DNA from: Escherichia coli
GTDB taxonomy: Bacteria; Pseudomonadota; Gammaproteobacteria; Enterobacterales; Enterobacteriaceae
DNA length: 64,000 nucleotides
Direction: 5' to 3' (one strand)
Assembly: GCF_009931435.1 (NCBI RefSeq)
Contig: NZ_CP043414.1
Below the pieces are notes generated by a model, which searched no databases, was not told where the DNA came from, and saw nothing but the letters and a program-made list of their open reading frames with translations. Shown in pieces: positions 12,888 to 48,799 of the stretch (positions are counted from its first letter, which is position 1; every line of letters starts with the position of its first letter). The position numbers were made by a program, and so were the translations under genes.

Positions 12888-13214
12888 ATGAATGAAGAAC
12901 TATTGAGGGCATTGTTTAAGATCCCAGACCCCATCACCGTCGATGAGTTTTCCCGCCGTACAGGTAAGACCGAATCAGCCGTAAGAAAGTTGGTAGAGCG
13001 TCGACTCATCCCTCTAACTACTGAGCGCGAGGTTTTAGGCGAGGAAGGGAGTTCGCGCCGTCTTCTCATCCTTTGGAATGAGTGGCTCGAAATGGTCTAT
13101 GACGCAACGAAACAGCTTCCTCCTGAGCGTAAAGATTGGCGCAATCACTGGCTTAAGAAAGCCAAGAAGCTGGCGGAAGATTTGGGATTAGGCTTTCTTA
13201 ATTTTGCTGCATGA
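12888..13214 (+). CDS. Cox-like excisionase / early regulator (start at MNEELLRALF)
   Basis: Position opposite the repressor; GGAG RBS before the internal Met; small HTH-like protein. Confidence 0.55.
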   Translation: MNEELLRALFKIPDPITVDEFSRRTGKTESAVRKLVERRLIPLTTEREVLGEEGSSRRLLILWNEWLEMVYDATKQLPPERKDWRNHWLKKAKKLAEDLGLGFLNFAA

Positions 13215-13232
13215 GATGCAGGGAGTTTTGAT

Positions 13233-13574
13233 ATGAAACAGCAACGTAATTCACGCTTTCGTAATGGTGCTGAACGCCACGCTAACCGTTTCGCTACCAG
13301 TGCATCACGCAGCAACATCCGCTACAGCCTGAGTGATACACACGCAACGCCGGATGGCTACCCAGTAAAACAAATCGGCGAGCACGCTTGGCTGATTGAG
13401 AAAGCTGGAATCGTGATCCACAAATGCCCACGCAATCCGTTTACCGGAAACCGCATTTTTGCATTGAGCTGTGGCGACAATCAGTTTGGGCAGGATTTCA
13501 CATTATACGAAGCACTTCGCACGGTTGATCGTCTGCTTCGCGGGCAAAGTTTTATTAAACAGGCTGATTTATAA
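13233..13574 (+). CDS. Hypothetical early-operon protein (113 aa)
   Basis: Co-directional ORF in the early operon. Confidence 0.45.
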   Translation: MKQQRNSRFRNGAERHANRFATSASRSNIRYSLSDTHATPDGYPVKQIGEHAWLIEKAGIVIHKCPRNPFTGNRIFALSCGDNQFGQDFTLYEALRTVDRLLRGQSFIKQADL

Positions 13575-13584
13575 CGGGTGCTTT

Positions 13585-13872
13585 ATGACCAAAGACCATG
13601 CACAAGGTGTATTTATCCGCTTTATTGATTTTCGCGGTGAACTGTTATTACGTGCATCCGCTATTGACGGAGTGACTCCGGCGGGTAAAAACGGAGCCGA
13701 CGAAGCCACTTACGTTTATCTGAACGGCACGCGACTGCTTGTGGAACTTCCGTACCAGACCGTACGAGAAATCATTAGCGAAGCTGAAAAGGCACGCCAA
13801 GTTAATGGCGATGAACCCTATATCGAAATTATTTGTATGGATTCAGAAGCTGAAATACAGAAAGCAGATTAA
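13585..13872 (+). CDS. Hypothetical early-operon protein (95 aa)
   Basis: Internal ATG immediately after the upstream stop. Confidence 0.45.
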   Translation: MTKDHAQGVFIRFIDFRGELLLRASAIDGVTPAGKNGADEATYVYLNGTRLLVELPYQTVREIISEAEKARQVNGDEPYIEIICMDSEAEIQKAD

Positions 13873-15537: not shown

Positions 15538-15750
15538 ATGAACAAAAAGACCTGGTTTCGCGCATACATGTGGGCGCTGGTATGCGTCCTCGTTTCTCTC
15601 ATTCTGTATGTGGGGCTACTTCCCAGAATGATTTCATCAGACAGCTCCTTCCTGGTATTGCTGGGCATTTTTGTCGCCTTGCTGTACCCGGCGGGCGTTG
15701 TTCGCTTTTTCAGTAACTACATCAAAGCAATTATGGAAACCAAACAATGA
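15538..15750 (+). CDS. Small two-TM membrane protein (70 aa)
   Basis: Two hydrophobic helices; ATGA overlap with downstream SPFH gene. Confidence 0.5.
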   Translation: MNKKTWFRAYMWALVCVLVSLILYVGLLPRMISSDSSFLVLLGIFVALLYPAGVVRFFSNYIKAIMETKQ

Positions 15751-16571
15751 AAAAACTATTACCACTCATCCCTCTCCTGATGACCACACTTCTGGTTGGC
15801 TGTGACCGCGTGGAGCCGGGCAATGTAGGCATCAAAGTCAACAAACTGGGCGACGATAAAGGCGTCGGTGAAGTAGTTGGCGTTGGCCGCTACTGGACAG
15901 GCTGGAATACAGAGGTTTACATCTTCCCGACTTTCAAACAAATGAAGACTTACGATGAGCCGTTCAACTTCCAGATGAGTGACGGCACAACCATCGGCTA
16001 TCACATCGGCGTGGCCTACAAAGTTGATCCATCCAAAGTTACCACTGTGTTTCAGACCTACCGCAAAGGCGTGGATGACATTACCGACACTGACCTGCGC
16101 CAGAAGATCGCCGATGCACTCAACCGACTGGCCAGCAAAATGACCACCGATAAGTTTATCGACGGTGGCAAGTCTGAACTGCTGGATTCAGCACTTAAAG
16201 ACATTCAGTCAGAAATGACACCTATCGGCATTCAGGTCATGAGCCTCTCTTATGTCGGTAAACCGGAATATCCGCCAACCGTTATCGACAGCATTAACGC
16301 CAAAGTCACGGCAAACCAGAAAACCCTGCAACGCGAACAGGAAGTCAAGCAACGCGAAGCAGAAGCCAACATGTTGCGCGCAGAAGCTGCCGGACAGGCT
16401 GATGCCATTCGCACAAAAGCCCAGGCTGAAGCCGACGCCATTCGTTTACGCGGTGAAGCTCTGCGCCAGAATCCCGGCGTTATGGAGCTGGAAGCAATCA
16501 ACAAATGGAACGGCACGCTGCCGCAATACATGACCAGCAACACCGCTGTTCCGTTTGTTCCGGTGAAGTAA
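15747..16571 (+). CDS. SPFH/band-7 (prohibitin/HflKC-like) domain lipoprotein
   Basis: Signal peptide plus lipobox LLVGC; SPFH-like core; Ala/Glu/Arg-rich coiled-coil tail. Confidence 0.6.
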   Translation: MKKLLPLIPLLMTTLLVGCDRVEPGNVGIKVNKLGDDKGVGEVVGVGRYWTGWNTEVYIFPTFKQMKTYDEPFNFQMSDGTTIGYHIGVAYKVDPSKVTTVFQTYRKGVDDITDTDLRQKIADALNRLASKMTTDKFIDGGKSELLDSALKDIQSEMTPIGIQVMSLSYVGKPEYPPTVIDSINAKVTANQKTLQREQEVKQREAEANMLRAEAAGQADAIRTKAQAEADAIRLRGEALRQNPGVMELEAINKWNGTLPQYMTSNTAVPFVPVK

Positions 16572-16940
16572 TTAAACCCGGCCAGTGAAAATCGCTGGCC
16601 GGAGCAGTATCAGGATTTTTTTTAGTATGCCGTTCTCACAAAAAAACCGCTTGCCATGCCGCAATCAGTCAGGTTACATTTCCGCTGCACCTCATAAAAC
16701 GGGTGCCGGGTTTCGCAGCCTGCTGACAACCAAAGCGCACAACCGCGCCAGCGGTTTTTTTGTGCGTACTGTATTGCCACGTCTTTTTCGCACACGAATT
16801 ATGGCGGGGCGTACGGGGCCGACTTCGGTCGGGCCGGGTTCTTTGGTTGCCGGTACTGCGAACCCCGTACGTCTCGCCACCCACAGTTTCGCAGCTCTGG
16901 ATGGTGAGTTTTCAAAACTTACAACCAAAGAGGCTACACC

Positions 16941-17615: not shown

Positions 17616-20438
17616 ATGACGGCAGAGTACATCAGGGACTGGCAACAACCGCGCCACGCAGTGGGGCGTGAAGGAACGGGGATCCCCGCTCCTGAATCCG
17701 CGCTTTCCTCCTGGCTGGATGCCTACCGGGTAGAGAACGAGCGCCGCCAGGAAATGGCTGATGCGGCGTTCTCCGCCACGCCGCTGGGCAACCTGATTAA
17801 TAAAAGCCTGGACGCACAGGAAAAACAGGACAAAACCATCACACTGGCAGGAGACGCCAGAAAACAGGCACGCGGCGCAGTGGATGAAGCCATGACCTCG
17901 CTGCGCCTGCTGCCGTCCTATCTGCGCGATCCGCTTATTCGCCACCTCTCCTTCCTGCGCAAAAAACAGGAAGCCGATCGCCGGAAAGGCAAAAAGAGCT
18001 GGCAGGCGGAACGCTATGCACGCGGAACCCTGCGCAAAATATTCGAACGTCTGGACCGCACCGATCACCGCTGGCTGACACCGGGTTATCGCTCCCTTGC
18101 CGGACGCGAACGCCTGGACGATTTGCTTTACCTGCCGCAGCTCAACAAACACCAGATACAGACGCTGGCCACCATGACGGCGGCGATGTTCAGCAGCACC
18201 TTCGAAAAACTCTGCGATGGCTTTGGCGCGACTGATGGCGAACTGACCATGGATGTAACGCTGAAGGCGTATCAGATGCTGGCCCGCATGGCGTTACACC
18301 TGCACGCCATGCCTCCACATTATGACGCACTGACAACAGACAAAGACCGGAGGAACGAACCGGACACAGAGCTGCTGCCGGGCGCAATCCTTCGCCTGAC
18401 CTGTGCGGAATGGTGGAAACGCAAACTGTGGCTGTTACGTTGCGAGTGGCGGGAAGAACAACTCCGCGCCGCCTGTCTGGTTTCCAGAAAAACATCGCCC
18501 TATCTGAGCCAGGACGCGTTAAGCGAGTTTCGCGCACAGCGCGAGAAAACACGCGATTTCCTGAAAAGTTTCATGCTGGAAAACGAAGACGGGTTCACGA
18601 TTGATCTCGAGACAGTGTATTACGCGGGAGTAAGTAACCCGGTTCACCGTAAGGCAGAAATGATGGCCACCATGAAGGGACTGGAACTTCTGGCCGAAGC
18701 CCGTGGCGACAGAGCGGTGTTTCTGACTGTCACCTGCCCGTCAAAATACCACGCAACAACGGAGAACGGTCATCCGAACCCCAAATGGAACGGGGCCACC
18801 ATGCGCGACTCCAGCGATTACCTGGTTAACACGTTTTTTGCGGCGGTCCGCAAAAAACTGAACCGCGACGGCCTGCGCTGGTATGGCATCCGCACGGTGG
18901 AGCCTCACCATGACGGCACCGTGCACTGGCATATGATGGTCTTTGCTCATCCGGAAGAAATCGACAGCATCGTGGCCATCACCCGCGATATTGCCATTCA
19001 GGAAGACCGCCACGAGCTGGGCAATGATATTACTCCGCGCTTTAAAGTGGAGTATGTCGACGGCTCAAAAGGCACACCAACCAGCTATATCGCGACCTAC
19101 ATCGGGAAAAACCTGGACAGCCGCGCCGTGGATGGCATCGACCCGAAAACGGGCAAACCACGCGTTGACCACGAAACCGGAAAGTCAATGGCCGAGAGCG
19201 TGGAACGCGCCATCGGCTGGGCGCGCCTTCACCGTGTCCGCCAGTTCCAGTTCTTTGGTATCCCCTCCCGTCAGGTGTGGCGTGAACTGCGTCGCCTTGC
19301 CAGCCAGATGGCACGCAACCCGGAAGGCCCGCAACAGCTGAAGGATGACGCAATGGATGCGGTACTCGCTGCCGCTGATGCCGGATGTTTTGCCACCTAC
19401 ATAGAGAAACAGGGCGGCGTTCTTGTTCCACGCAAAGACTACCTGATTCGCACCGCCTACGACCTCGCAGATGAGCTGAACGATTACGGCGAACAGAGCG
19501 TACAGATTTACGGGATCTGGTCGCCACTCATCGGGGAATCCTCCCGTGTGTGCACGCATCCGGATAACTGGAAGCTGGTAAGACGTAAACCGGAAACGGA
19601 AGACAGCGCCCGCGAAAATGGTTTTGACCTTCAGGGCGGCCCTGCCGCCCCTTGGACTCGTGGCAATAACTGTCCCCGTGTACAGGAAACGGACAACAAC
19701 GGGACAGAACAGCCGGAAGAACGGCCAGCACCGTGGCCGCAGCTTCCTGACAGCGTTGACGTGAATGAATGGATGCGCTCACTGAAACGGCACGAACGCC
19801 GGGCGCTGATGCGTTCGCTGCGTGACAAACAGGCAAAAAACAGCAGTGATGAAATGCAGAACTGGACACAGAGCCGCAAACAGCCACGGCCTTTGCCTGA
19901 TAACCACGAGTTACTCGCTAAAGAATGGCGGGAGTCTGCTGAATCTCTCGGCCTGCATATTGGTGAACAGCAGATGCAGCACCTGTTACGGGGCGGCAGT
20001 CTGTACGTTGACGGCAGCATCATTGCACCGCAGGGATTTGAAATTGTACGCAAACCGGATACCCGCCCGGACAGCCGAATCACGCAGCTCTGGCAGCGCC
20101 TGAGCCGTAATCACGGCGTAAGCAGCACGGGGATCCGCCATAACCCGGTCGCCAGCTATCTGGAACAGCTGGGGGCATCAGACCCCGAAGCCGCCGCACG
20201 CCTGGCATCCACACTTCAGCAGGACCAGAACACCATGAAAACCCCCGTTACCGTGCTTTCTGACATGCTGCGCGCCATCCGTGACGCAGAGCACGCACAG
20301 AGAATCAGTGAAACAACTGAACGCGCCCGCCGCAAAGCAGACCTGCTGCGGGGTGGCCTGACCAGTGGAAACAAAAAACAGACAAAAACAGGATTCACAA
20401 ATCCCGTAAATGAGCAAAAAACGCGCCGTGATATATGA
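17616..20438 (+). CDS. Rolling-circle replication initiator (HUH endonuclease, P2 gpA / phiX174 gpA family), 940 aa
   Basis: HUH motif in VHWHMMVFAHP and catalytic Tyr motif YIATYIGKNLD; position after the early operon. Confidence 0.8.
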   Translation: MTAEYIRDWQQPRHAVGREGTGIPAPESALSSWLDAYRVENERRQEMADAAFSATPLGNLINKSLDAQEKQDKTITLAGDARKQARGAVDEAMTSLRLLPSYLRDPLIRHLSFLRKKQEADRRKGKKSWQAERYARGTLRKIFERLDRTDHRWLTPGYRSLAGRERLDDLLYLPQLNKHQIQTLATMTAAMFSSTFEKLCDGFGATDGELTMDVTLKAYQMLARMALHLHAMPPHYDALTTDKDRRNEPDTELLPGAILRLTCAEWWKRKLWLLRCEWREEQLRAACLVSRKTSPYLSQDALSEFRAQREKTRDFLKSFMLENEDGFTIDLETVYYAGVSNPVHRKAEMMATMKGLELLAEARGDRAVFLTVTCPSKYHATTENGHPNPKWNGATMRDSSDYLVNTFFAAVRKKLNRDGLRWYGIRTVEPHHDGTVHWHMMVFAHPEEIDSIVAITRDIAIQEDRHELGNDITPRFKVEYVDGSKGTPTSYIATYIGKNLDSRAVDGIDPKTGKPRVDHETGKSMAESVERAIGWARLHRVRQFQFFGIPSRQVWRELRRLASQMARNPEGPQQLKDDAMDAVLAAADAGCFATYIEKQGGVLVPRKDYLIRTAYDLADELNDYGEQSVQIYGIWSPLIGESSRVCTHPDNWKLVRRKPETEDSARENGFDLQGGPAAPWTRGNNCPRVQETDNNGTEQPEERPAPWPQLPDSVDVNEWMRSLKRHERRALMRSLRDKQAKNSSDEMQNWTQSRKQPRPLPDNHELLAKEWRESAESLGLHIGEQQMQHLLRGGSLYVDGSIIAPQGFEIVRKPDTRPDSRITQLWQRLSRNHGVSSTGIRHNPVASYLEQLGASDPEAAARLASTLQQDQNTMKTPVTVLSDMLRAIRDAEHAQRISETTERARRKADLLRGGLTSGNKKQTKTGFTNPVNEQKTRRDI

Positions 20439-20486
20439 AGCGCGCACAAAACAGGCGAAAACGGGATTTAAAAATCCTGTAACCGA
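20385..20486. repeat. Two copies of a ~24-bp imperfect palindrome spanning the replication-gene stop and parM upstream region
   Basis: aaaacaGGATTcacaaATCCCgtaa (20385..20410) and aaaacgGGATTtaaaaATCCTgtaa (20457..20486); possible ParR operator or parC. Confidence 0.5.
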
Positions 20487-20514: not shown

Positions 20515-21474
20515 ATGAAAATTTGTATCGACGACGGATCCACCAACATCAAGCTGGCATGGACTGAGAACGGCGAACGCCGCAACGCCATCAGCCCGAA
20601 CAGCTTCAAGTCAGAATGGTCTGCGCCGTTCGGTGGCACGCAGCCCGCGAACTACATGCTTGATGGCGTGCGCTATGGTTTTGATCCGGTCAGCGATCGC
20701 TTTGTCCAGACGACCGACACGCAATACCAGTACAGCGATGTGAATGTCATTGCCATTCATCATGCGCTGGTCAAATCAGGCATCACGCCACAGGAGGTGG
20801 ATGTGGTTGTCACCCTGCCACTGAGCGAGTATTTCGACACAAACGCACAGCCGGACATGGCCAACATCAACCGCAAAAAAGCGAACGTTATGCGCCCGGT
20901 GGAGTACCAGAACGGCGAGGCATTCACTATCCGTAACGTGCGGGTTATGCCTGAATCCATTCCGGCTGGCTTTAAAGCACTGGCTGACATGAGTCCGTTT
21001 GAATCCCTGCTGATTGTGGATTTGGGCGGAACCACGCTGGATGTGGCAAAGGTTCAGGGGCAACTGGCAGGTATCAGCCAGGTGTTTTGCGATCCACACG
21101 TAGGCGTTTCCCTGATGGCCGATGCCGTACTGTCGGTAATGGCCACTAACGGTATGCGCACCAGTCACCACATCGCCAATACCATTATCGAACATCGCCA
21201 CGATGAAGCCTGGCTGCGCCAGCACATCCACAATAACGCACATTACGCCAGCCTGATGGCTGTTATTCGTGAAAAGGAAGAAACACTGAAACAACGCGTG
21301 ATCCGCGCGCTGGCGGGTTTTTCGGGTTACGGGCGGGTGATGGTTGTAGGTGGAGGGGCAGAGATTGTGGCACCCGCTATCCGCGAAGCCTGCGGAGTTA
21401 ATGCGACTTTCATCGCGGACGGGGTGCCACAGTTTGCTCTGGTTAATGGGCTGTACGCAATGGACAAGGAGTAA
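20515..21474 (+). CDS. parM: Actin-like segregation ATPase ParM/StbA
   Basis: N-terminal IDDGSTNIKLAW and overall similarity to plasmid R1 ParM as recalled. Confidence 0.85.
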   Translation: MKICIDDGSTNIKLAWTENGERRNAISPNSFKSEWSAPFGGTQPANYMLDGVRYGFDPVSDRFVQTTDTQYQYSDVNVIAIHHALVKSGITPQEVDVVVTLPLSEYFDTNAQPDMANINRKKANVMRPVEYQNGEAFTIRNVRVMPESIPAGFKALADMSPFESLLIVDLGGTTLDVAKVQGQLAGISQVFCDPHVGVSLMADAVLSVMATNGMRTSHHIANTIIEHRHDEAWLRQHIHNNAHYASLMAVIREKEETLKQRVIRALAGFSGYGRVMVVGGGAEIVAPAIREACGVNATFIADGVPQFALVNGLYAMDKE

Positions 21475-21478
21475 ATCA

Positions 21479-21793
21479 ATGACGACACCAACCAGACGGA
21501 TAAGTTTCTATCTGAAGCCCGCCGTCGTCAAGAGCGAACGGGAGGCGTGCAGTTACCTCGACAGCCTGCCAGCCTCCGAACGCAGCCGCGCACAACGCGC
21601 GGCTTTTCTGGCCGGACTGGCTCTTATAAAACGCACCCCCGCGTTGGCGTATTCGCTGGCAGAATGGTCAGAAGACGAAATACGGATGCCACCGCTACCA
21701 GTACAGCCTGAAAAACCGGCGCAACCAGCAGCAGACAGCGCCCCCCATATGCAGCAGGTGAAAAAGAATATTCAGGCGTTTTTCCCGAAGTGA
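21479..21793 (+). CDS. parR: ParR/StbB-like centromere-binding protein (104 aa)
   Basis: Immediately downstream of parM; AGGAG RBS; N-terminal RRISFYLKP resembles R1 ParR. Confidence 0.65.
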   Translation: MTTPTRRISFYLKPAVVKSEREACSYLDSLPASERSRAQRAAFLAGLALIKRTPALAYSLAEWSEDEIRMPPLPVQPEKPAQPAADSAPHMQQVKKNIQAFFPK

Positions 21794-21807
21794 AAACAGG
21801 AGTAACT

Positions 21808-22095
21808 ATGTCCACCATTACCAAAGAATGGTTACAACGTAAAATCACAGAGTTTAAATCGTGGCGCGAAGACATCCCGTTCGGTCTTGATGAAGACGAT
21901 CACAATATGTTAATCGCACTGGAAATCGCACTTGCATCACTGGAAGCAGAGCCAGTGGCATGGATGCACGCAAATAATCCTATTGGAATACCGGCGATAA
22001 CAAGAAGTAAAGATGTTGCAGACAGCTGGCGCTCTAAGGGATGGAATGTATTGCCTCTTTATTCACTGACCCGCTCCATCAATTTATGCCATTAA
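21808..22095 (+). CDS. Hypothetical protein (95 aa)
   Basis: ORF starting MSTITKEWLQRK. Confidence 0.4.
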   Translation: MSTITKEWLQRKITEFKSWREDIPFGLDEDDHNMLIALEIALASLEAEPVAWMHANNPIGIPAITRSKDVADSWRSKGWNVLPLYSLTRSINLCH

Positions 22096-22106
22096 TGGAA
22101 GTAATC

Positions 22107-22466
22107 ATGATGAAAGATAATTCCGGAAGCCAGCGTGCATCAGTTGCAGTTATGGTAATGATTAAATTTGTGAAACAGTACACCGGAAAGCCAATCTCGC
22201 TCCGGCAATTAAGCAAAGAAACCGTTTCACTGTCATATCTGGAGCAAATATTCAGATATTTACGGGAAAGTAGCCTGGTAAAAGCCACACGCGGCCCGGG
22301 TGGTGGATATATCCCGACAAAAGAAAATTACAGTGTTGGTGATATTGTCCGGGCAATGAAATGTTCCGGATTATATACACAGCACGTTATTCTGGCTGCA
22401 CTGGATAATATTTCTTTAACCAGCCTGCAGGAAGACACAAATTATCAGTTGTCTGCCATTGAATAA
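22107..22466 (+). CDS. Rrf2-family-like transcriptional regulator (short, 119 aa)
   Basis: LSYLEQIFRYLRESSLVKATRGPGGGY matches the Rrf2/IscR HTH signature. Confidence 0.55.
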   Translation: MMKDNSGSQRASVAVMVMIKFVKQYTGKPISLRQLSKETVSLSYLEQIFRYLRESSLVKATRGPGGGYIPTKENYSVGDIVRAMKCSGLYTQHVILAALDNISLTSLQEDTNYQLSAIE

Positions 22467-22534
22467 GAAAACCCGGAACGGGTGCGCAAATTCTTTGTGC
22501 GCCCGTTCCGGGTTGGACAAGCGAAGCGCGTCAG

Positions 22535-22792
22535 CTATCCGGCCTGCAACAACTCCAGAGCCATTTGTTTTTCTTCCGGACGCATCCGCTCAATCAACAG
22601 CTTTAACACACCATTCTCCAGCCCGCTGGGCACCAGTGTGTGCGAGTAGGTCAGATTCATCACCCAGGTATGTCCGCACTCGAGACGGGTGCAACGGTAA
22701 TACACATCAGCAAACTGATCGGTTTTCCAGGCTGTTTTCTCAATCACTGCATGTGCACCGCAGCAATGACATCGCGCTTTCTGTCTGCGCAT
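22535..22792 (-). CDS. Ogr/Delta-family zinc-finger late-gene activator (start at internal Met)
   Basis: CxCC...YYRC...CGH pattern similar to P2 Ogr; adjacent to the late operon. Confidence 0.65.
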   Translation of the reverse strand: MRRQKARCHCCGAHAVIEKTAWKTDQFADVYYRCTRLECGHTWVMNLTYSHTLVPSGLENGVLKLLIERMRPEEKQMALELLQAG

Positions 22793-22857
22793 TTTCCACC
22801 TCCCGGAACAGCGTTTTACTGCCACCGATTTTACCCGCTCTTTCCCCATACCGCACA

Positions 22858-23892
22858 TCACTCCATGGGTTCATCAAAATCAAGAATAAATTTCACCTCC
22901 CCCAGTCGTCTGATATCCGGGTCGCTGTTGATCCCCTCCATAATCAGGCGGCGCATCGGGATAACCTCATCCCTGTAATATGCCTCGCGGGATTTCAGTG
23001 GGTCACCAAGCCCGGCCGTATTTGCGGGAATGATGCCGGCAAGCCCGGGTGGAAAACGGTGCGCAACGAGCTGATCCTGGGCACTGATAGTTTTTATATT
23101 CAGGAACTCATCTTTTGTACCTGAATCTCCGATAGGGATCACCTTAACGCCTTCTTTGTCTCCGCCAGGTATATTGATAAACATGGATTTAAAATTGCCC
23201 GCCCCTTTTGACGCCTCTATCTTTTTACGGAATTCCGCCTCGAGCTCGGGATCCATGTCCGGGTCAGTGGAATACAGGATATAACCAAGATGTGCGCCGT
23301 TCTTGTAATACTTGCGGCGAAAGCGGGTGGCATCCACATTCAGCATGGCAGATTCCATCCCGTGAATATAATCCGGGACACCGTAAACCTGCTGTTGCGG
23401 GTCATAAATGGCCACGAACACTACTTCGCCTGGCGGGTAAACGAGATCTTCCAGTGCCGCCTGCACAATCACCGTGCCACCCTCGTTGTTACGCCGCAGG
23501 TACAGAGAAGGTAACGTATGCAGGCGCACCACTCGACCGAAGCCATTGCGCACTTTAAGCAACCCCATATCCCCGAATATCAGCAGATTGGTTACTGCTG
23601 CCGCCATGGCGGCGTGTGTCATACCACCACCCCCCCGAAAACCCTGCATGATCATATTGACGCGCGCACGCAATACCGCGCCGTGATACGGTGCGATATT
23701 GGACAACATGGCGAGATCCATGCGCTCAATGGGCGGCGTGTACCAGCCGTTATAGCCATCCCAGAGCGAGCCGTAATAACAGCCCCATGCAGCGACCGGT
23801 TCCGGGTCACCAAATTCAATAAAAGTCATTTTGCTGGCTGTTTTTTTTGCCACGCCATCGTGTAACACGGGGTATTTTTTCTTTTTACTCAT
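22858..23892 (-). CDS. Portal protein (P2 gpQ-like, 344 aa)
   Basis: Size and position next to terminase large subunit, divergent from scaffold/capsid. Confidence 0.75.
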   Translation of the reverse strand: MSKKKKYPVLHDGVAKKTASKMTFIEFGDPEPVAAWGCYYGSLWDGYNGWYTPPIERMDLAMLSNIAPYHGAVLRARVNMIMQGFRGGGGMTHAAMAAAVTNLLIFGDMGLLKVRNGFGRVVRLHTLPSLYLRRNNEGGTVIVQAALEDLVYPPGEVVFVAIYDPQQQVYGVPDYIHGMESAMLNVDATRFRRKYYKNGAHLGYILYSTDPDMDPELEAEFRKKIEASKGAGNFKSMFINIPGGDKEGVKVIPIGDSGTKDEFLNIKTISAQDQLVAHRFPPGLAGIIPANTAGLGDPLKSREAYYRDEVIPMRRLIMEGINSDPDIRRLGEVKFILDFDEPME

Positions 23893-45281: not shown

Positions 45282-45880
45282 TCACCGGGCATACCCCCCC
45301 ATAAACGCCCATCACGCAACGCACGGCTCCGGTCGTGCGTTTTCATATCTGCCACCTGATTAATGCGTTCTGCGTGCCATTCTGGCGCTGTATGCGCACA
45401 CCGCGTAAACGGTGTGACGTAAAGCGTGAGGTGACGTAAACCGCGCTACCCCCTCCAACCCGCGGGTTTCGTGTCGAAACAGTTTTTCAGTTTTCTGCCG
45501 TGCAAAAATGACCGCCAGCCCGCGCAGCAACTGAGGGAAAAGCGAAGATCTGAAATTTCACGCTTTGAAATTTTTTGCAGTTTTCAAAGTGGTTTTTACG
45601 ATCGCACAAATGGCCGGAGCAATAAAACCGCATGATATTAAAAGAGTTTTCATACTTTACGCGAGACAAAAAAACGATCACGAAAGGATCGCATCAAACA
45701 GCCATCAAACAAAGAAGGCAGACACGGCGCGGCCTGCACAAAATTAAGCTCCAAAATAAAACTGAAAAAAAGGATCGCAACAAGAAGAAAAGCGCGTAAA
45801 ACGATCGCTGCTGATGTGGCGTTTCTTTATACAAGCTGCTATTTGCGATATGCTGAACACATCAACCTGTGGAGTGCATT

Positions 45881-46507
45881 ATGAAACGAAAATCAAAGTC
45901 TGCTGCCATTGCTGCTATTACTACAGCTCTGACAGCATCACTGGCTCCGGTGCCAGCTAAAAGCACGATACTACCAACAACAGTTATTGAATCCGCGACA
46001 CACGCCAGAGTGGTTTCAATGCTTACATTTGAGCATCATGATGGTCAGGTGTTTCTGCCTCTCGAAGAAGCTATTGAATATATCAACGGGCTGAATGACA
46101 ACATGCGCGCCGCGCTCAATGCAGTCATTGAAGAACGACAGAACAGAGGCAAGGGAGCACTGTTTACTGACAAAACCGCAAAAATCATAAAAATATGCGA
46201 AGAGTCAATTAAGCAGCACACCCGTGTTAAAGAGGCTGTCAAAATTGTAATGGATCCGGATAACCTGGCAAAAATGTATCCGGATAGCCTGGAGCAAAGA
46301 ATCGCCTATCGCAATAAACTGGTTCGTTTTGGTCGGGCAATTGCGCAGGGAGAGTTTATCGCTCGTGATGCCATCAACACCATCAAACGAAGCACCGCAC
46401 CAGACAAAACAACCAGCCTGGGCAATACGCTGTCTGACGGAAATGTGAAAGCAATGATTATTGCCGAGCATAAAAACATGGGACTCCCGGCACCGGAGTT
46501 TTCCTGA
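45881..46507 (+). CDS. Hypothetical protein (208 aa) with signal-peptide-like N-terminus, coupled to the YafO-like gene
   Basis: GGAG RBS before MKRKSK; N-region/hydrophobic stretch MKRKSKSAAIAAITTALTASLAPVPA; TGATG overlap with next gene. Confidence 0.6.
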   Translation: MKRKSKSAAIAAITTALTASLAPVPAKSTILPTTVIESATHARVVSMLTFEHHDGQVFLPLEEAIEYINGLNDNMRAALNAVIEERQNRGKGALFTDKTAKIIKICEESIKQHTRVKEAVKIVMDPDNLAKMYPDSLEQRIAYRNKLVRFGRAIAQGEFIARDAINTIKRSTAPDKTTSLGNTLSDGNVKAMIIAEHKNMGLPAPEFS

Positions 46508-46887
46508 TGGCAAGCAAAGTAAGCATTCATAAAGATGTTGAATACCAGGACATTGCAAAAGTTTACGGAAAGGCTCTGGAAAACTGGTTAAATACCGGTG
46601 TTCTCCCTGACAGATTCGGCAATGAAGGGCAGTGGGAAGATAACGCAAGATTATGTGGTTCGTTTGTATATAAATTACACATAAGACTACCGTCAGAACC
46701 ACCATGGAAGAAAAGCAAAGCCCAAATAGACAGAACTTCAAATATCTATCTGGTTTATACAAGGCACTGGATGGATTATGACAATATACAAATCATCAGC
46801 ATCATGGCCCCAGATGCTCACGAAAAAGCCAAAACTTCTTTCATGGCTGAACTGGAAAGACGGGCTGAAGAATTCCAGAACTCATAA
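46507..46887 (+). CDS. YafO-family toxin-like protein (126 aa)
   Basis: Blocks GVLPDRFGNEG, HIRL, YLVYTR and C-terminal ISIMAPDAHEKAK...AEEF resemble E. coli YafO as I recall it. Confidence 0.55.
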   Translation: MASKVSIHKDVEYQDIAKVYGKALENWLNTGVLPDRFGNEGQWEDNARLCGSFVYKLHIRLPSEPPWKKSKAQIDRTSNIYLVYTRHWMDYDNIQIISIMAPDAHEKAKTSFMAELERRAEEFQNS

Positions 46888-46907
46888 ATTGCCTGATTTT
46901 CTCTCAG

Positions 46908-46942
46908 AAACCCGCAGCGTAAAAACTGTGGGTTTTCTTTTT
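46908..46942 (+). terminator. Rho-independent terminator after the YafO-like operon
   Basis: Hairpin aaacccgcag...ctgtgggttt followed by T-run. Confidence 0.65.
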
Positions 46943-47178
46943 GCTACCCTGATACGTGAGGGTAGCACTCAAAGTGAGGCAATATGTAGGCAACCTATTT
47001 AATACGTAAAAATTAATGCATTAAATGGATATTTACTAGCATGGGTACTGGCTTAAAATATCACAACCCTGTTTTATAACGTACTGAATTTATTAGGTGT
47101 GACGGTTTTCCAATGGGGCTTCCGACATTACGTTCAGCTGATGCTTTTCTTATGTAACGAGAAGACATATATTGGTAA

Positions 47179-47234
47179 GCGATGAAGCGATGAAGCGATG
47201 AAGCGATGAAGCGATGAAGCGATGAAGCGATGTA
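47179..47234. repeat. Octanucleotide tandem repeat (GCGATGAA) x6 plus one degenerate unit, flanked by ATGTAACG
   Basis: Directly visible; about 95 bp upstream of the ATPase start codon. Confidence 0.95.
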
Positions 47235-47251
47235 ACGTCTGTTTGGTTATA

Positions 47252-47296
47252 AACTTCACACTAATAATTTCTAAATGAAATTATTAGTGTGAAGTT
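47252..47296. promoter_or_regulatory. 20-bp perfect inverted repeat (aacttcacactaataatttc / gaaattattagtgtgaagtt, 5-nt spacer): candidate operator or 5'-UTR hairpin
   Basis: Perfect palindrome ending 34 bp upstream of the ATPase ATG; RBS AAGGAA follows. Confidence 0.6.
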
Positions 47297-47329
47297 GATG
47301 TTTATTGTGATTATAACTAAGGAATTAAA

Positions 47330-48799
47330 ATGAAATTATCTCCAGCAGAATTGAAGTTAGAAAGGGGTAAGGTTCAAGATAATAAATTCAATCAATATGT
47401 TAAACGTATCACATTAAAAAATGTCAGAGGGTTTGATGAGGAAATTGTGGAGTTTAAAACACCAGTTACAGCTCTTATCGGGACTAATGGTGGAGGGAAG
47501 TCGACTATATTAGGTGCTGTAGCTCTCGCTTATAAAAATGTTAAGCCAAGCAAGTTTTTCCCTAAATCATTTTATGGGGATGATTCAATGAGTGATTGGG
47601 AAATTGGATTCGAATTGATTGACAAGCCTATTTCAAAAGATAAAAATATTAACAGGACTGCAAAATTTAAACAGATGAAATGGCGCAGAGATAATTTCCC
47701 AGAGCGAAATGTTGTATATGTAGAAATACAAAGAACTGTTCCTGCAGGCGAACTAACTAAGTTTAATAAATTTTTATCTGGCGATGCTAAACAATTTGAA
47801 GAAAAAAATCTCAACCCTGAGACAATAAAATATTGCTCTGCCGTTTTAGATAAAAAGATAGAAGATTACAGATGTATAATAAATAAGCACGATCCATCTT
47901 CAAGAATGTTTGTAGGTAAGGCAATTAATGGTTCTGGTTATTCTCAGTTCCATTTTGGTGCAGGTGAAGCATCAATAATAGATACTATTGATAGAATAGA
48001 GACTGCTGCTGATAATTCTCTTGTTTTAATTGAAGAAATTGAAAATGGACTGCATCCTGTTGCAGTGCGGTTGTTTGTTAACTATTTGACAAATGTAGCA
48101 AAGAGGAAAAAGCTGCAAATAATATTTACAACACATTCGCAGGATGCAGTAAACGAGCTAGAGCCAGAAGCTGTTTGGGCTTCTATTAACAAAAAAGTAT
48201 GGAATGGTAAACTAAGTATTGAAAGTTTACGCGCTATAACGGGACAGAAGATAAATTCGAAAGTTATATATGTTGAAGATTCTTTTGCAAAAGAGTGGGT
48301 TGAAAATGCGATGGATCGATATATTCCAGAACTAGCCTCAACAATAAAAGTCTACACGGCAGGTGGTTACCCCAGCGTGGTTAAAGTAAGTCAATATCAT
48401 AATGAGAACCCTACTATAAATTATCCATCAATCGCATTAGTTGATGGGGATATTAAAGGTAGACCCGGAACTAAAGATCTGCCTGATAATGCAATGTTCA
48501 TCGGGGATGATTATCCTGACGCTACGGTTTTTCATTATATTGCAAATAACATAGAAGAAAATGCCTCAGTTTTGAGGCAAAGATGTTTGTTAACAAGATT
48601 TGACGCTGAAAAGATTAAATCGGAAGTTGAGAGTGTGATGCATTCTGCATGTGATCACCATGTTTATTTTACTAGATTAAGTGATAAATTAGATTTTGCC
48701 TCAGAACTATTCATTCGAGCTGGTATGATAGATTTATTTAATGAGAAAAATCCAGAATTTTGGTCCCCAATTATGGACTTCATTAAAAAAGGTCTATAG
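47330..48799 (+). CDS. OLD-family-like ABC ATPase fused to Toprim/DUF4435-like domain (489 aa); candidate antiphage defence protein
   Basis: Walker A GTNGGGKST, Walker B LVLIEEIE, H-loop TTHS; C-terminal YVEDS (Glu) and ALVDGD (DxD); AT-rich gene. Confidence 0.65.
   Translation: MKLSPAELKLERGKVQDNKFNQYVKRITLKNVRGFDEEIVEFKTPVTALIGTNGGGKSTILGAVALAYKNVKPSKFFPKSFYGDDSMSDWEIGFELIDKPISKDKNINRTAKFKQMKWRRDNFPERNVVYVEIQRTVPAGELTKFNKFLSGDAKQFEEKNLNPETIKYCSAVLDKKIEDYRCIINKHDPSSRMFVGKAINGSGYSQFHFGAGEASIIDTIDRIETAADNSLVLIEEIENGLHPVAVRLFVNYLTNVAKRKKLQIIFTTHSQDAVNELEPEAVWASINKKVWNGKLSIESLRAITGQKINSKVIYVEDSFAKEWVENAMDRYIPELASTIKVYTAGGYPSVVKVSQYHNENPTINYPSIALVDGDIKGRPGTKDLPDNAMFIGDDYPDATVFHYIANNIEENASVLRQRCLLTRFDAEKIKSEVESVMHSACDHHVYFTRLSDKLDFASELFIRAGMIDLFNEKNPEFWSPIMDFIKKGL

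What the first reader, a model, noticed from the sequence alone, without database searches (positions are those of the whole stretch)
22107..22466. Short Rrf2-family-like regulator encoded in the prophage near the cos/late-operon boundary
The ORF retains the Rrf2/IscR DNA-binding signature (LSYLEQIF...RGPGGGY) but is shorter than typical Rrf2 proteins and lacks an obvious Cys cluster. It is an unusual regulator type for a P2-like phage and may be a cargo regulator or remnant.
Basis: partly seen in the sequence, partly recalled or inferred. Interest (0 to 1): 0.3.

Follow-up and report, generated by a model that had tools for sequence, protein, structure and literature searches.

The report
Phage-borne sensor-less mini-IscR DNA-binding protein
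The ORF is a real, intact gene for a shortened relative of the bacterial iron-sulfur regulator IscR that keeps the DNA-reading part but has lost the iron-sulfur sensing part. It belongs to a small uncharacterised family found here only in temperate phages and integrative elements of enterobacteria, and in this window it sits as swappable cargo in a P2-like prophage.

Summary
Window 22107-22466 (+) encodes a 119-aa protein that passes Pfam Rrf2 (50.9 bits, cut-off 30). Its closest solved relative is E. coli IscR. It is not a remnant. It belongs to a family of 95-125-aa proteins that keep IscR's recognition helix (SxSYLEQ) and wing (RGPGGGY). The family lacks about 24 residues that carry three of IscR's four cluster ligands (C98, C104, H107) and half of the dimerisation helix. 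The family is under purifying selection (dN/dS 0.06-0.14) and folds confidently (pLDDT 89; TM 0.72 to apo-IscR). Every context examined was a temperate phage or integrative element, and all named hosts are Enterobacterales. In this E. coli P88-like prophage it forms, with an Ea22/EaA-like ORF, a 674-bp swappable cassette in the gpA-gpQ hotspot. About 36 of roughly 1,300 related prophage-bearing genomes carry it. The most likely function is a signal-blind, apo-IscR-like DNA binder acting in trans. Targeting of host IscR sites is inference only, and no IscR-type site was found in the phage DNA. RefSeq already names it an Rrf2-family regulator. I found no functional study. It is a new variant of a known kind, of moderate interest.

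The parts
22107..22466 (+). CDS of the 119-aa sensor-less IscR-like (mini-Rrf2) protein. Alternative starts are 22095 and 22110. The PGAP model starts at 22041.
21808..22095 (+). Upstream 95-aa ORF, a mosaic of Ea22/EaA/DUF551-like modules. Its TAA stop overlaps ATG 22095 (TAATG). It is the other gene of the cassette but not a conserved partner of the family.
21794..22467 (.). Swappable cargo cassette (orf95 plus mini-IscR). Related prophages share the sequence to its left (stbB) and right (hairpin) but carry other genes in between.
22470..22514 (.). 21-nt-arm inverted repeat. It is the right border of the cassette. On the - strand it is followed by a U-run, so it looks like the intrinsic terminator of the ogr transcript. 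It probably also stops + strand transcription.
   Evidence: H57-H59 share 22468-22534; dG -39.5 kcal/mol, z -5.9.
22535..22792 (-). ogr/Delta-type zinc-finger late activator gene, convergent with the cassette.
20515..21793 (+). parM (20515-21474) and stbB/Plasmid_stab_B (21479-21793). They are co-directional and lie immediately upstream. The cassette has no convincing promoter of its own and is probably read through from here.
17616..20438 (+). gpA-type replication endonuclease, the left boundary of the gpA-gpQ hotspot.
22858..23892 (-). Portal protein (gpQ homologue), the right boundary of the hotspot.

Best explanation
The gene encodes a functional accessory phage protein: an IscR-derived winged-helix DNA-binding protein that has lost its iron-sulfur sensor. 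Shown here: the wHTH fold; retention of the IscR residues that read DNA (S40, E43, Q44, R59, P61 and the Gly-rich wing); loss of ligands C98, C104 and H107 and of about half of the dimerisation helix; purifying selection; restriction to temperate mobile elements of Enterobacterales; and cassette-like, patchy presence in the P2-type gpA-gpQ hotspot. Inferred: it forms a homodimer and binds DNA constitutively, because it has nothing with which to sense Fe-S status. The E43-equivalent residue is invariant and there is no cluster, so it should behave like apo-IscR and prefer type-2-like IscR sites. It is dispensable for the phage and has no operator nearby. I therefore propose that it acts in trans on the host chromosome as a signal-blind mimic or competitor of IscR, for example at suf, hya and other type-2 promoters. 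It would be expressed with the early or replication genes.
For: Family and fold:
- Pfam Rrf2 is above cut-off, and IscR models are the top NCBIfam hits for all 19 family members.
- phmmer and Foldseek both put apo-IscR first (TM 0.72), with a monomer model of pLDDT 89.3.
- hhalign of the family against IscR gives probability 99.85% and E 7e-31, with gaps that remove IscR 86-91 and about 96-112.
- Invariant residues are S41, S43, Y44, E46, GPGGGY and L99, which correspond to IscR S38, S40, Y41, E43 and G60-Y65. The roles of S40, E43, R59, P61 and the wing glycines in DNA contact come from PMC9338935.
- A fused-dimer AF2 model has pTM 0.75 with both halves at pLDDT about 90.

Evidence that the gene is functional:
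- About 20 clusters of 95-125-aa relatives exist.
- 157 IMG/VR contigs encode relatives, and the best 80 are all short and ligand-less.
- dN/dS is 0.06-0.14.

Contexts:
- Lambdoid cI -> small ORF -> mini-IscR -> recE -> xis -> int.
- Or O -> DnaC-like -> DUF1627-like -> mini-IscR.

Accessory status:
- Present in about 36 of about 1,300 E. coli genomes with a related prophage.
- Other cargo occupies the same slot in relatives.

Host range:
- Named hosts are Escherichia, Klebsiella, Enterobacter, Citrobacter, Cedecea, Lelliottia and Mixta.
Against: - No binding site is known. Neither IscR type-1 nor type-2 consensus occurs near the gene or above chance in the window.
- The type-2 core occurs 0 times in 805 kb of related phage loci. 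This is compatible with host targets but gives no positive support.
- The shortened dimerisation helix could change dimer geometry and therefore half-site spacing.
- The IscR N-terminal DNA contacts (R2, and probably R8/Y9) are not conserved.
- The dimer evidence is a linker hack read out only as pTM, with no control.
- The hotspot position fits a defence role at least as well.
- The protein fails the NCBIfam Rrf2 and IscR cut-offs.
- There are no expression data.
Confidence: 0.45

Rival explanations
1. It is a regulator of phage genes. It would bind an operator in its own or a related phage genome and tune early, partition, late or cassette genes.
For: It has a transcription-factor fold. It sits in early operons next to repressor or replication modules. 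In the window it is convergent with ogr and downstream of parM-stbB.
Against: It is present in only about 36 of about 1,300 related prophage-bearing genomes, so the phage does not need it. It occurs in unrelated phage backbones at different positions. It has no own promoter, and no operator-like palindrome lies upstream; the only strong inverted repeat is the downstream terminator. No IscR-like motif occurs in 805 kb of carrier loci.
Confidence: 0.2
2. It is part of an anti-phage (superinfection exclusion or defence) or counter-defence cassette together with orf95, for example by binding and silencing incoming DNA.
For: It lies exactly in the gpA-gpQ hotspot that Rousset et al. 2022 showed to be rich in defence systems. 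[quoted passage not shown] A 2026 preprint predicts that many unknown hotspot genes are antiviral. The cassette swaps between relatives.
Against: PADLOC gives no hit for either protein. The orf95 partner is not conserved with the family. Most homologues sit in lytic early operons of lambdoid phages, not in defence hotspots. No effector-like domain is present.
Confidence: 0.15
3. It is a dominant-negative partner of host IscR. It would heterodimerise through the retained C-terminal helix and poison or retarget IscR.
For: The C-terminal 'VLxALDxVxL' segment aligns to IscR 113-126 in the dimerisation helix region. All named hosts are Enterobacterales, which from my own knowledge carry IscR.
Against: Half of the dimerisation helix is missing. 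The full set of DNA-reading residues is under strong conservation, which a pure poison subunit would not need. The homodimer model is already confident. No heterodimer test was possible.
Confidence: 0.1
4. It is a decaying fragment of a full-length Rrf2 gene with no function.
For: It is about 25-45 aa shorter than typical Rrf2 proteins and fails the NCBIfam cut-offs.
Against: The short length and the C-terminal motif are conserved across relatives only 35-54% identical. dN/dS is 0.06-0.14. All 80 best viral homologues are intact and short. The model has pLDDT 89.
Confidence: 0.03

Closest known systems
E. coli IscR in its apo form (PDB 4HF0/4HF1/4CHU)
   Same: It is the best sequence and structural match. 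The recognition helix S-L-S-Y-L-E-Q and the wing R-G-P-G-G-G-Y are the same. The C-terminal 'LNNITL'-type segment is retained. Like apo-IscR it has no cluster, and it keeps the E43 equivalent that restricts apo-IscR to type-2 sites (that role is from my own knowledge of Rajagopalan et al. 2013; PMC9338935 mentions it).
   Different: It lacks C98, C104 and H107 and about 24 residues including the N-terminal half of the dimerisation helix. It has no C-terminal tail. It is 119 aa against 162 aa. It is not linked to iscSUA and is phage-borne. Its scores are far below the IscR equivalog cut-offs (59 against 208 bits).
Cluster-less Rrf2 proteins such as CymR (PDB 2Y75, 3T8R), BC1842 (1YLF) and 1XD7
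   Same: They are Rrf2 wHTH proteins that work without an Fe-S cluster. They appear among the structural matches, and the CymR model is matched by all family members.
   Different: They keep the full-length dimerisation helix and are chromosomal metabolic or stress regulators. Their recognition helix and wing differ (CymR has SEHYLEQ and RGAYGGY, from my own knowledge).
Cargo of the P2 gpA-gpQ (cos-proximal) hotspot, for example old and tin of P2 (Rousset et al. 2022, PMC9122126)
   Same: It occupies the same slot between the replication endonuclease and the portal gene. Content differs between related prophages. The locus type is listed in that paper's supplement.
   Different: It has no known defence domain, no PADLOC hit and no tested phenotype.
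Phage-encoded copies of host transcription factors or nucleoid proteins (for example VqmA-Phi of vibriophage VP882 and lambda NinH as a Fis-like protein; from my own knowledge, not checked here)
   Same: This is the same concept: a phage carries a homologue of a host DNA-binding regulator that can act on host-type sites.
   Different: Those proteins keep their sensing or complete domain architecture. Here the sensor has been deleted.

Membership tests
Rrf2 superfamily | Profile match above the curated Pfam threshold (PF02082) | tested here: met
   50.9 bits against a cut-off of 30, E 2.2e-13, profile positions 2-85 of 132.
Rrf2 superfamily | Profile match above the NCBIfam TIGR00738 (rrf2_super) cut-off | tested here: not met
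   53.5 bits against a cut-off of 73.3. The shortfall comes from the missing C-terminal half of the profile.
Rrf2 superfamily | N-terminal winged helix-turn-helix with a glycine-rich wing (Lx3Gx6Gx2GGx2L motif, PMC9338935) | tested here: met
   The AF2 model (pLDDT 89.3) matches Rrf2 structures only (TM 0.6-0.74). The sequence reads L52-x3-S56-x6-G63-x2-G66G67-x2-P70. The wing glycines are invariant in the family. The first G is S in this protein, and the last L is P.
Rrf2 superfamily | Long C-terminal helix that forms the homodimer | tested here: inconclusive
   Only the C-terminal half is retained, aligned to IscR about 113-126. A fused-dimer AF2 model gives pTM 0.75, which suggests a dimer, but its geometry could not be inspected.
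IscR (TIGR02010 / NF008110 equivalogs) | Score above the equivalog cut-off | tested here: not met
   59.3 against 207.55 bits, and 46.3 against 275 bits.
IscR | [2Fe-2S] ligands C92, C98, C104 and H107 | tested here: not met
   C98, C104 and H107 fall in alignment gaps. C87 aligns to C92 but is present in only 5 of 19 family members.
IscR | DNA-reading residues S40, E43, Q44, R59, P61 | tested here: met
   S43, E46, Q47, R62 and P64 are invariant or nearly invariant in the family. Their roles come from PMC9338935.
IscR | Genomic linkage to iscSUA or an Fe-S biogenesis operon | tested here: not met
   The gene lies in a prophage hotspot. Homologues lie in phage early operons.
IscR | Binds type-1 or type-2 IscR DNA sites | not testable with these tools
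   Only motif scans were possible, and they found nothing above chance in the window or the phage loci.
P2-like gpA-gpQ hotspot cargo (Rousset 2022) | Located between the replication endonuclease and the portal gene, and variable among related prophages | tested here: met
   gpA is at 17616-20438 and the portal gene at 22858-23892. About 36 of about 1,300 genomes carry the cassette. Alternative cargo is seen in P88, L015 and L016. The locus is listed in the paper's supplement.
Anti-phage defence system | Match to a known defence protein model, or a demonstrated protection phenotype | tested here: not met
   PADLOC gives 0 hits for both cassette proteins. The phenotype cannot be tested here.
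Two-gene module (for example toxin-antitoxin) with orf95 | The partner gene is conserved next to homologues | tested here: not met
   orf95 has no counterpart next to the homologues in 8 other contexts. The only recurrent neighbour is a DUF1627-like wHTH protein.

The most novel reading that the evidence does not exclude
Temperate phages of Enterobacterales carry a dedicated, signal-blind IscR mimic. On expression it would occupy host IscR type-2 sites, or pair with IscR, and uncouple the Isc/Suf iron-sulfur biogenesis and anaerobic-respiration regulon from the cell's real Fe-S status, to the benefit of phage replication or lysogen fitness. That would be a previously undescribed class of phage host-takeover factor, made by deleting the sensor from a host regulator.
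Probability: 0.25. Interest if true: 0.65.

Novelty: new variant of a known kind. Interest (0 to 1): 0.4.

Why it matters
IscR is a master regulator of Fe-S cluster supply, oxidative and iron stress responses and, in several pathogens, virulence. A phage family that carries IscR's DNA-reading head without its sensor would be a simple natural tool for overriding that regulon. It would also add transcription-factor mimicry to the functions found in P2-type hotspots, which are currently read almost only as defence islands. If instead it is a defence or phage-internal regulator, it still marks an untested 674-bp cassette that is easy to clone. In practical terms, the RefSeq gene model (141 aa from 22041) is probably too long at its N-terminus.

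Tried and rejected
- Looked for a palindromic operator near the gene. Only the downstream terminator hairpin and weak chance-level repeats were found.
- Scanned for IscR type-2 and type-1 consensus. Type-2 gave 4 matches at 1 mismatch against 8.4 expected, none near the gene. Type-1 gave 0 matches.
- Scanned 805 kb of related loci for the type-2 core. It occurred 0 times against 6.25 in shuffles. The loci are highly redundant, so I treat this neither as an operator nor as robust avoidance.
- Searched for the P2 cos sequence. It is absent.
- Tested the defence annotation with PADLOC. There was no hit.
- Tested orf95 as a conserved partner by all-against-all BLAST of neighbours in 9 contexts. 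It is not conserved. orf95 is also not related to the prophage's other ead/Ea22-like protein.
- Rejected the HrcA_DNA-bdg Pfam hit (23 bits). It covers only the shared wing region of the same wHTH fold.
- The first search for related loci attempt on the 19-sequence alignment failed for lack of a conserved stretch. It worked with 6 closer sequences.
- Four full-text literature searches found no study of a phage-encoded Rrf2 or IscR-like protein. The apparent hits used delta-iscR only as a control strain, concerned host IscR sites, or concerned a host nsrR-like gene.
- A distant DNA search found no donor phage for the mini-IscR half of the cassette.

Full report
**Where the window comes from**

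The segment 20400-23000 is 100% identical to the chromosome of E. coli strain 7_33_46A, and partial matches occur in 1,302 of 5,426 complete E. coli genomes. The surrounding genes are those of a P88-like (Xuanwuvirus, Peduoviridae) prophage inserted between the pheA leader and raiA.

The local gene order is:
- gpA-type replication endonuclease (17616-20438)
- parM (20515-21474)
- stbB / Plasmid_stab_B (21479-21793)
- a 95-aa ORF (21808-22095)
- the target ORF (to 22466)
- a strong hairpin (22470-22514)
- then, on the opposite strand, ogr (22535-22792), portal (22858-23892) and large terminase

**The observation**

It passes Pfam Rrf2 at 50.9 bits against a cut-off of 30 (E 2.2e-13), but only over profile positions 2-85 of 132. 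NCBIfam ranks IscR first (59.3 bits), followed by the Rrf2 superfamily model and then CymR. All are below their curated cut-offs because the C-terminal half of those models is not matched. Against solved structures the best sequence hits are E. coli IscR entries, at about 1e-10. RefSeq already names the gene 'RrF2 family transcriptional regulator', with a 141-aa model starting at 22041. PHROGs has it as phrog_24072, function unknown.

The N-terminus is better placed at 22095-22110, for three reasons. Homologues and IscR begin about 8-10 residues before the first helix. The 22-aa extension has no counterpart in any relative. GGAAG precedes ATG 22107 by 5 nt, while ATG 22095 overlaps the upstream stop as TAATG.

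**What the protein is**

A full HMMER scan of 1.84 billion representatives found 1,737 Rrf2 relatives. Only about 20 clusters align over the whole query, and these are all 95-125 aa long.

Aligned with E. coli IscR, this short family keeps the following as invariant or nearly invariant:
- S41, S43, Y44, E46 and Q47, which correspond to IscR S38, S40, Y41, E43 and Q44
- R62 and G63-Y68, which correspond to IscR R59 and G60-Y65
- L99 within a C-terminal 'VLxALDxVxL' motif

S40, E43, R59, P61 and the wing glycines are the DNA-contacting residues described for the IscR-hya complex (PMC9338935).

Profile-profile comparison with a set of full-length IscRs gives 99.85% probability and E 7e-31. It places two gaps that remove IscR 86-91 and about 96-112, so ligands C98, C104 and H107 and the first half of the dimerisation helix are missing. 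The single Cys of the window protein (C87) aligns to C92 but is present in only 5 of 19 members.

AlphaFold2 with the family alignment gives a confident model (pLDDT 89.3, pTM 0.81). Its best PDB matches are apo-IscR and IscR-DNA complexes (TM 0.70-0.74), followed by CymR, RsrR and NsrR.

I also predicted a tandem construct of two copies joined by a 30-residue Gly-Ser linker. It gave pTM 0.75, with both halves at pLDDT about 90 and only the linker disordered. This suggests a defined homodimer. It is weak evidence, because the geometry could not be inspected and no control was run.

**Functional gene or remnant**

- A scan of IMG/VR found 157 viral contigs encoding relatives.
- The best 80 all encode intact 108-123-aa proteins when read from the family N-terminus, and none has the cluster ligands.
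- Among 60 unique coding sequences of the commonest subfamily, Nei-Gojobori dN/dS has a median of 0.063 for pairs with dS 0.03-0.2, and 0.14 for more diverged pairs.

The 'remnant' reading is therefore excluded.

**Where the family lives**

Every context examined is a temperate phage or integrative element.
- In the commonest subfamily, which includes Citrobacter phage Chris1, the order is CI-type repressor, a 64-71-aa ORF, mini-IscR, RecE-like exonuclease VIII, xis, int. This is an early-left operon.
- Similar left-operon positions occur in prophages of Mixta calida and Lelliottia.
- In another group the order is O-like, DnaC-like, DUF1627-like wHTH protein, mini-IscR, then (in L003, L005 and L030) a small zinc-ribbon protein.
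- One member sits beside a GhoT/OrtT-type toxin near an integrase.

All hosts named for cluster members are Enterobacterales: Escherichia, Klebsiella, Enterobacter, Citrobacter, Cedecea, Lelliottia and Mixta. Among isolated phages only Klebsiella phage Kp4865-4 and Citrobacter phage Chris1 carry a short-family member. BFVD has a single structural match.

**The cassette in the window**

- The 741-bp stretch 21794-22534 occurs nearly complete in 36 of 5,426 complete E. coli genomes, always chromosomal and at least 99% identical.
- Other prophages with the same stbB on the left and the same 67-bp hairpin segment (22468-22534) on the right carry different genes in between.
- P88 itself carries four unrelated small ORFs at this position. 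Another variant keeps only the first 200 bp of the query, that is, the start of orf95.
- So 21794-22467 behaves as a swappable cassette in the gpA-gpQ slot. Rousset et al. 2022 defined this slot as the cos-proximal hotspot of P2-like phages. [quoted passage not shown]
- The 95-aa upstream ORF is a mosaic of Ea22/EaA/DUF551-like modules from the 'ea' regions of lambdoid and P22-like phages. It is not found next to other family members.
- The cassette has no convincing promoter of its own. The only consensus hit lies inside orf95. No + strand terminator-like site separates it from parM-stbB, so read-through is the simplest assumption.
- The hairpin (dG -39.5 kcal/mol, z -5.9) is followed by a U-run on the - strand. 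It is most simply the ogr terminator and the cassette's right border.

**How it most likely works**

Shown:
- It is a conserved, folded wHTH protein of IscR descent with IscR's DNA-reading residues.
- It has no sensor.
- It is accessory to the phage.

Inferred:
- It dimerises and binds DNA constitutively.
- Because the E43 equivalent is invariant and no cluster can form, it should resemble apo-IscR in specificity, that is, type-2-like sites. The E43 rule comes from my own knowledge of Rajagopalan et al. 2013 and is touched on in PMC9338935.
- Its targets are probably in trans, most plausibly host IscR sites. This rests on three points. Most related prophages lack the gene. It appears in unrelated phage backbones. 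There is no operator-like site nearby and no IscR-type motif in the window or in 805 kb of carrier loci.

I give this whole chain a confidence of 0.45. The first layer alone, a functional sensor-less DNA binder, I would put near 0.8. The host-IscR-site step I would put near 0.3.

The rivals are:
- a phage-internal regulator (0.2)
- a defence or counter-defence role suggested by the hotspot (0.15; PADLOC finds nothing)
- a heterodimer poison of IscR (0.1)
- a dead remnant (0.03)

**Comparison with what is known**

It works like apo-IscR but is not IscR. It fails the ligand, score and genomic-context criteria. It is a divergent, truncated member of the Rrf2 superfamily that passes Pfam and fails TIGR00738. 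Known cluster-less Rrf2 proteins such as CymR and BC1842 keep the full dimerisation helix.

Four full-text searches found no study of a phage-encoded Rrf2 or IscR-like protein (with follow-up reading). The library searched does not hold most subscription-journal papers.

The gene is thus annotated but uncharacterised. I class the short, phage-restricted, sensor-less family as a new variant of a known kind.

**Verdict**

The finding is real and correctly read by the first stage, apart from the 'remnant' option and the unverified cos claim. It is of moderate interest (0.4). The attraction is the clean natural experiment of a host master regulator stripped of its sensor and spread by phages. The weakness is that no target or phenotype can be shown computationally.

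Noticed in passing
window 20388-20407 and 20462-20482, with parM 20515-21474 and stbB 21479-21793: An integrated P2-like prophage carries a complete ParM/StbB (ParR-like) plasmid-partition pair. Two similar inverted repeats (ACAGGATT..AATCCCGT and ACGGGATTT..AATCCTGT) lie just upstream and look like a parC-type centromere or promoter. The module is present in about 1,300 E. coli genomes, which raises the question of whether these phages ever replicate as plasmids.
   Followed up: partly
window 16687-16761 and 16797-16884 (+): Rfam finds an isrK Hfq-binding RNA and a C4 antisense RNA (P1/P7-type immunity RNA) in the early region of this P2-like prophage.
   Followed up: no
window 22535-22861 (-): The ogr/Delta zinc-finger gene sits directly downstream of the portal gene on the - strand, facing the hotspot, and ends at the shared hairpin terminator. 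P88 itself has no ogr annotated at this position. From my own knowledge, in P2 ogr is at the other end of the late region.
   Followed up: no
window 45869-48799: There is a second cargo region at the right end of the prophage. It holds a hypothetical protein plus a YafO-family toxin (46507-46887), a 489-aa 'ATP-dependent nuclease' (47330-48799) and, in the matching strain, a truncated DNA methyltransferase. These are probable defence or toxin-antitoxin cargo.
   Followed up: no
L003 1304-2597; L005 1749-3092; L011 2952-3979; L030 4309-5521; L008 5774-6345: In the replication modules of lambdoid prophages the mini-IscR gene is repeatedly preceded, often with overlapping stop and start, by a DUF1627-like wHTH protein. 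In L003, L005 and L030 it is followed by a small Cys4 zinc-ribbon protein. This may be a conserved triad of unknown function.
   Followed up: partly
The loci are highly redundant, so this may be chance, but avoidance of IscR sites by carriers would be worth testing on a non-redundant set.
   Followed up: partly
window 22365-22367 (Cys87 of the 119-aa protein): The only cysteine aligns with IscR ligand C92 in the profile-profile alignment and recurs in 5 of 19 family members. It may be a vestige of the cluster site or a thiol switch specific to one lineage.
   Followed up: partly
window about 13200-13600 compared with L001 2292-5175: The otherwise near-identical prophage in strain 7_33_46A has an IS66-family (ISEc23) insertion splitting a DUF4761 gene. 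From the coordinate offset between the two, the window appears to lack this insertion, so the window is from a different isolate.
   Followed up: no
window 15747-16571; L010 4905-5627: An SPFH/Band_7 protein is encoded in the early region of this prophage. A Band_7 protein also lies two genes upstream of the mini-IscR homologue in an unrelated prophage. This may be coincidence.
   Followed up: no
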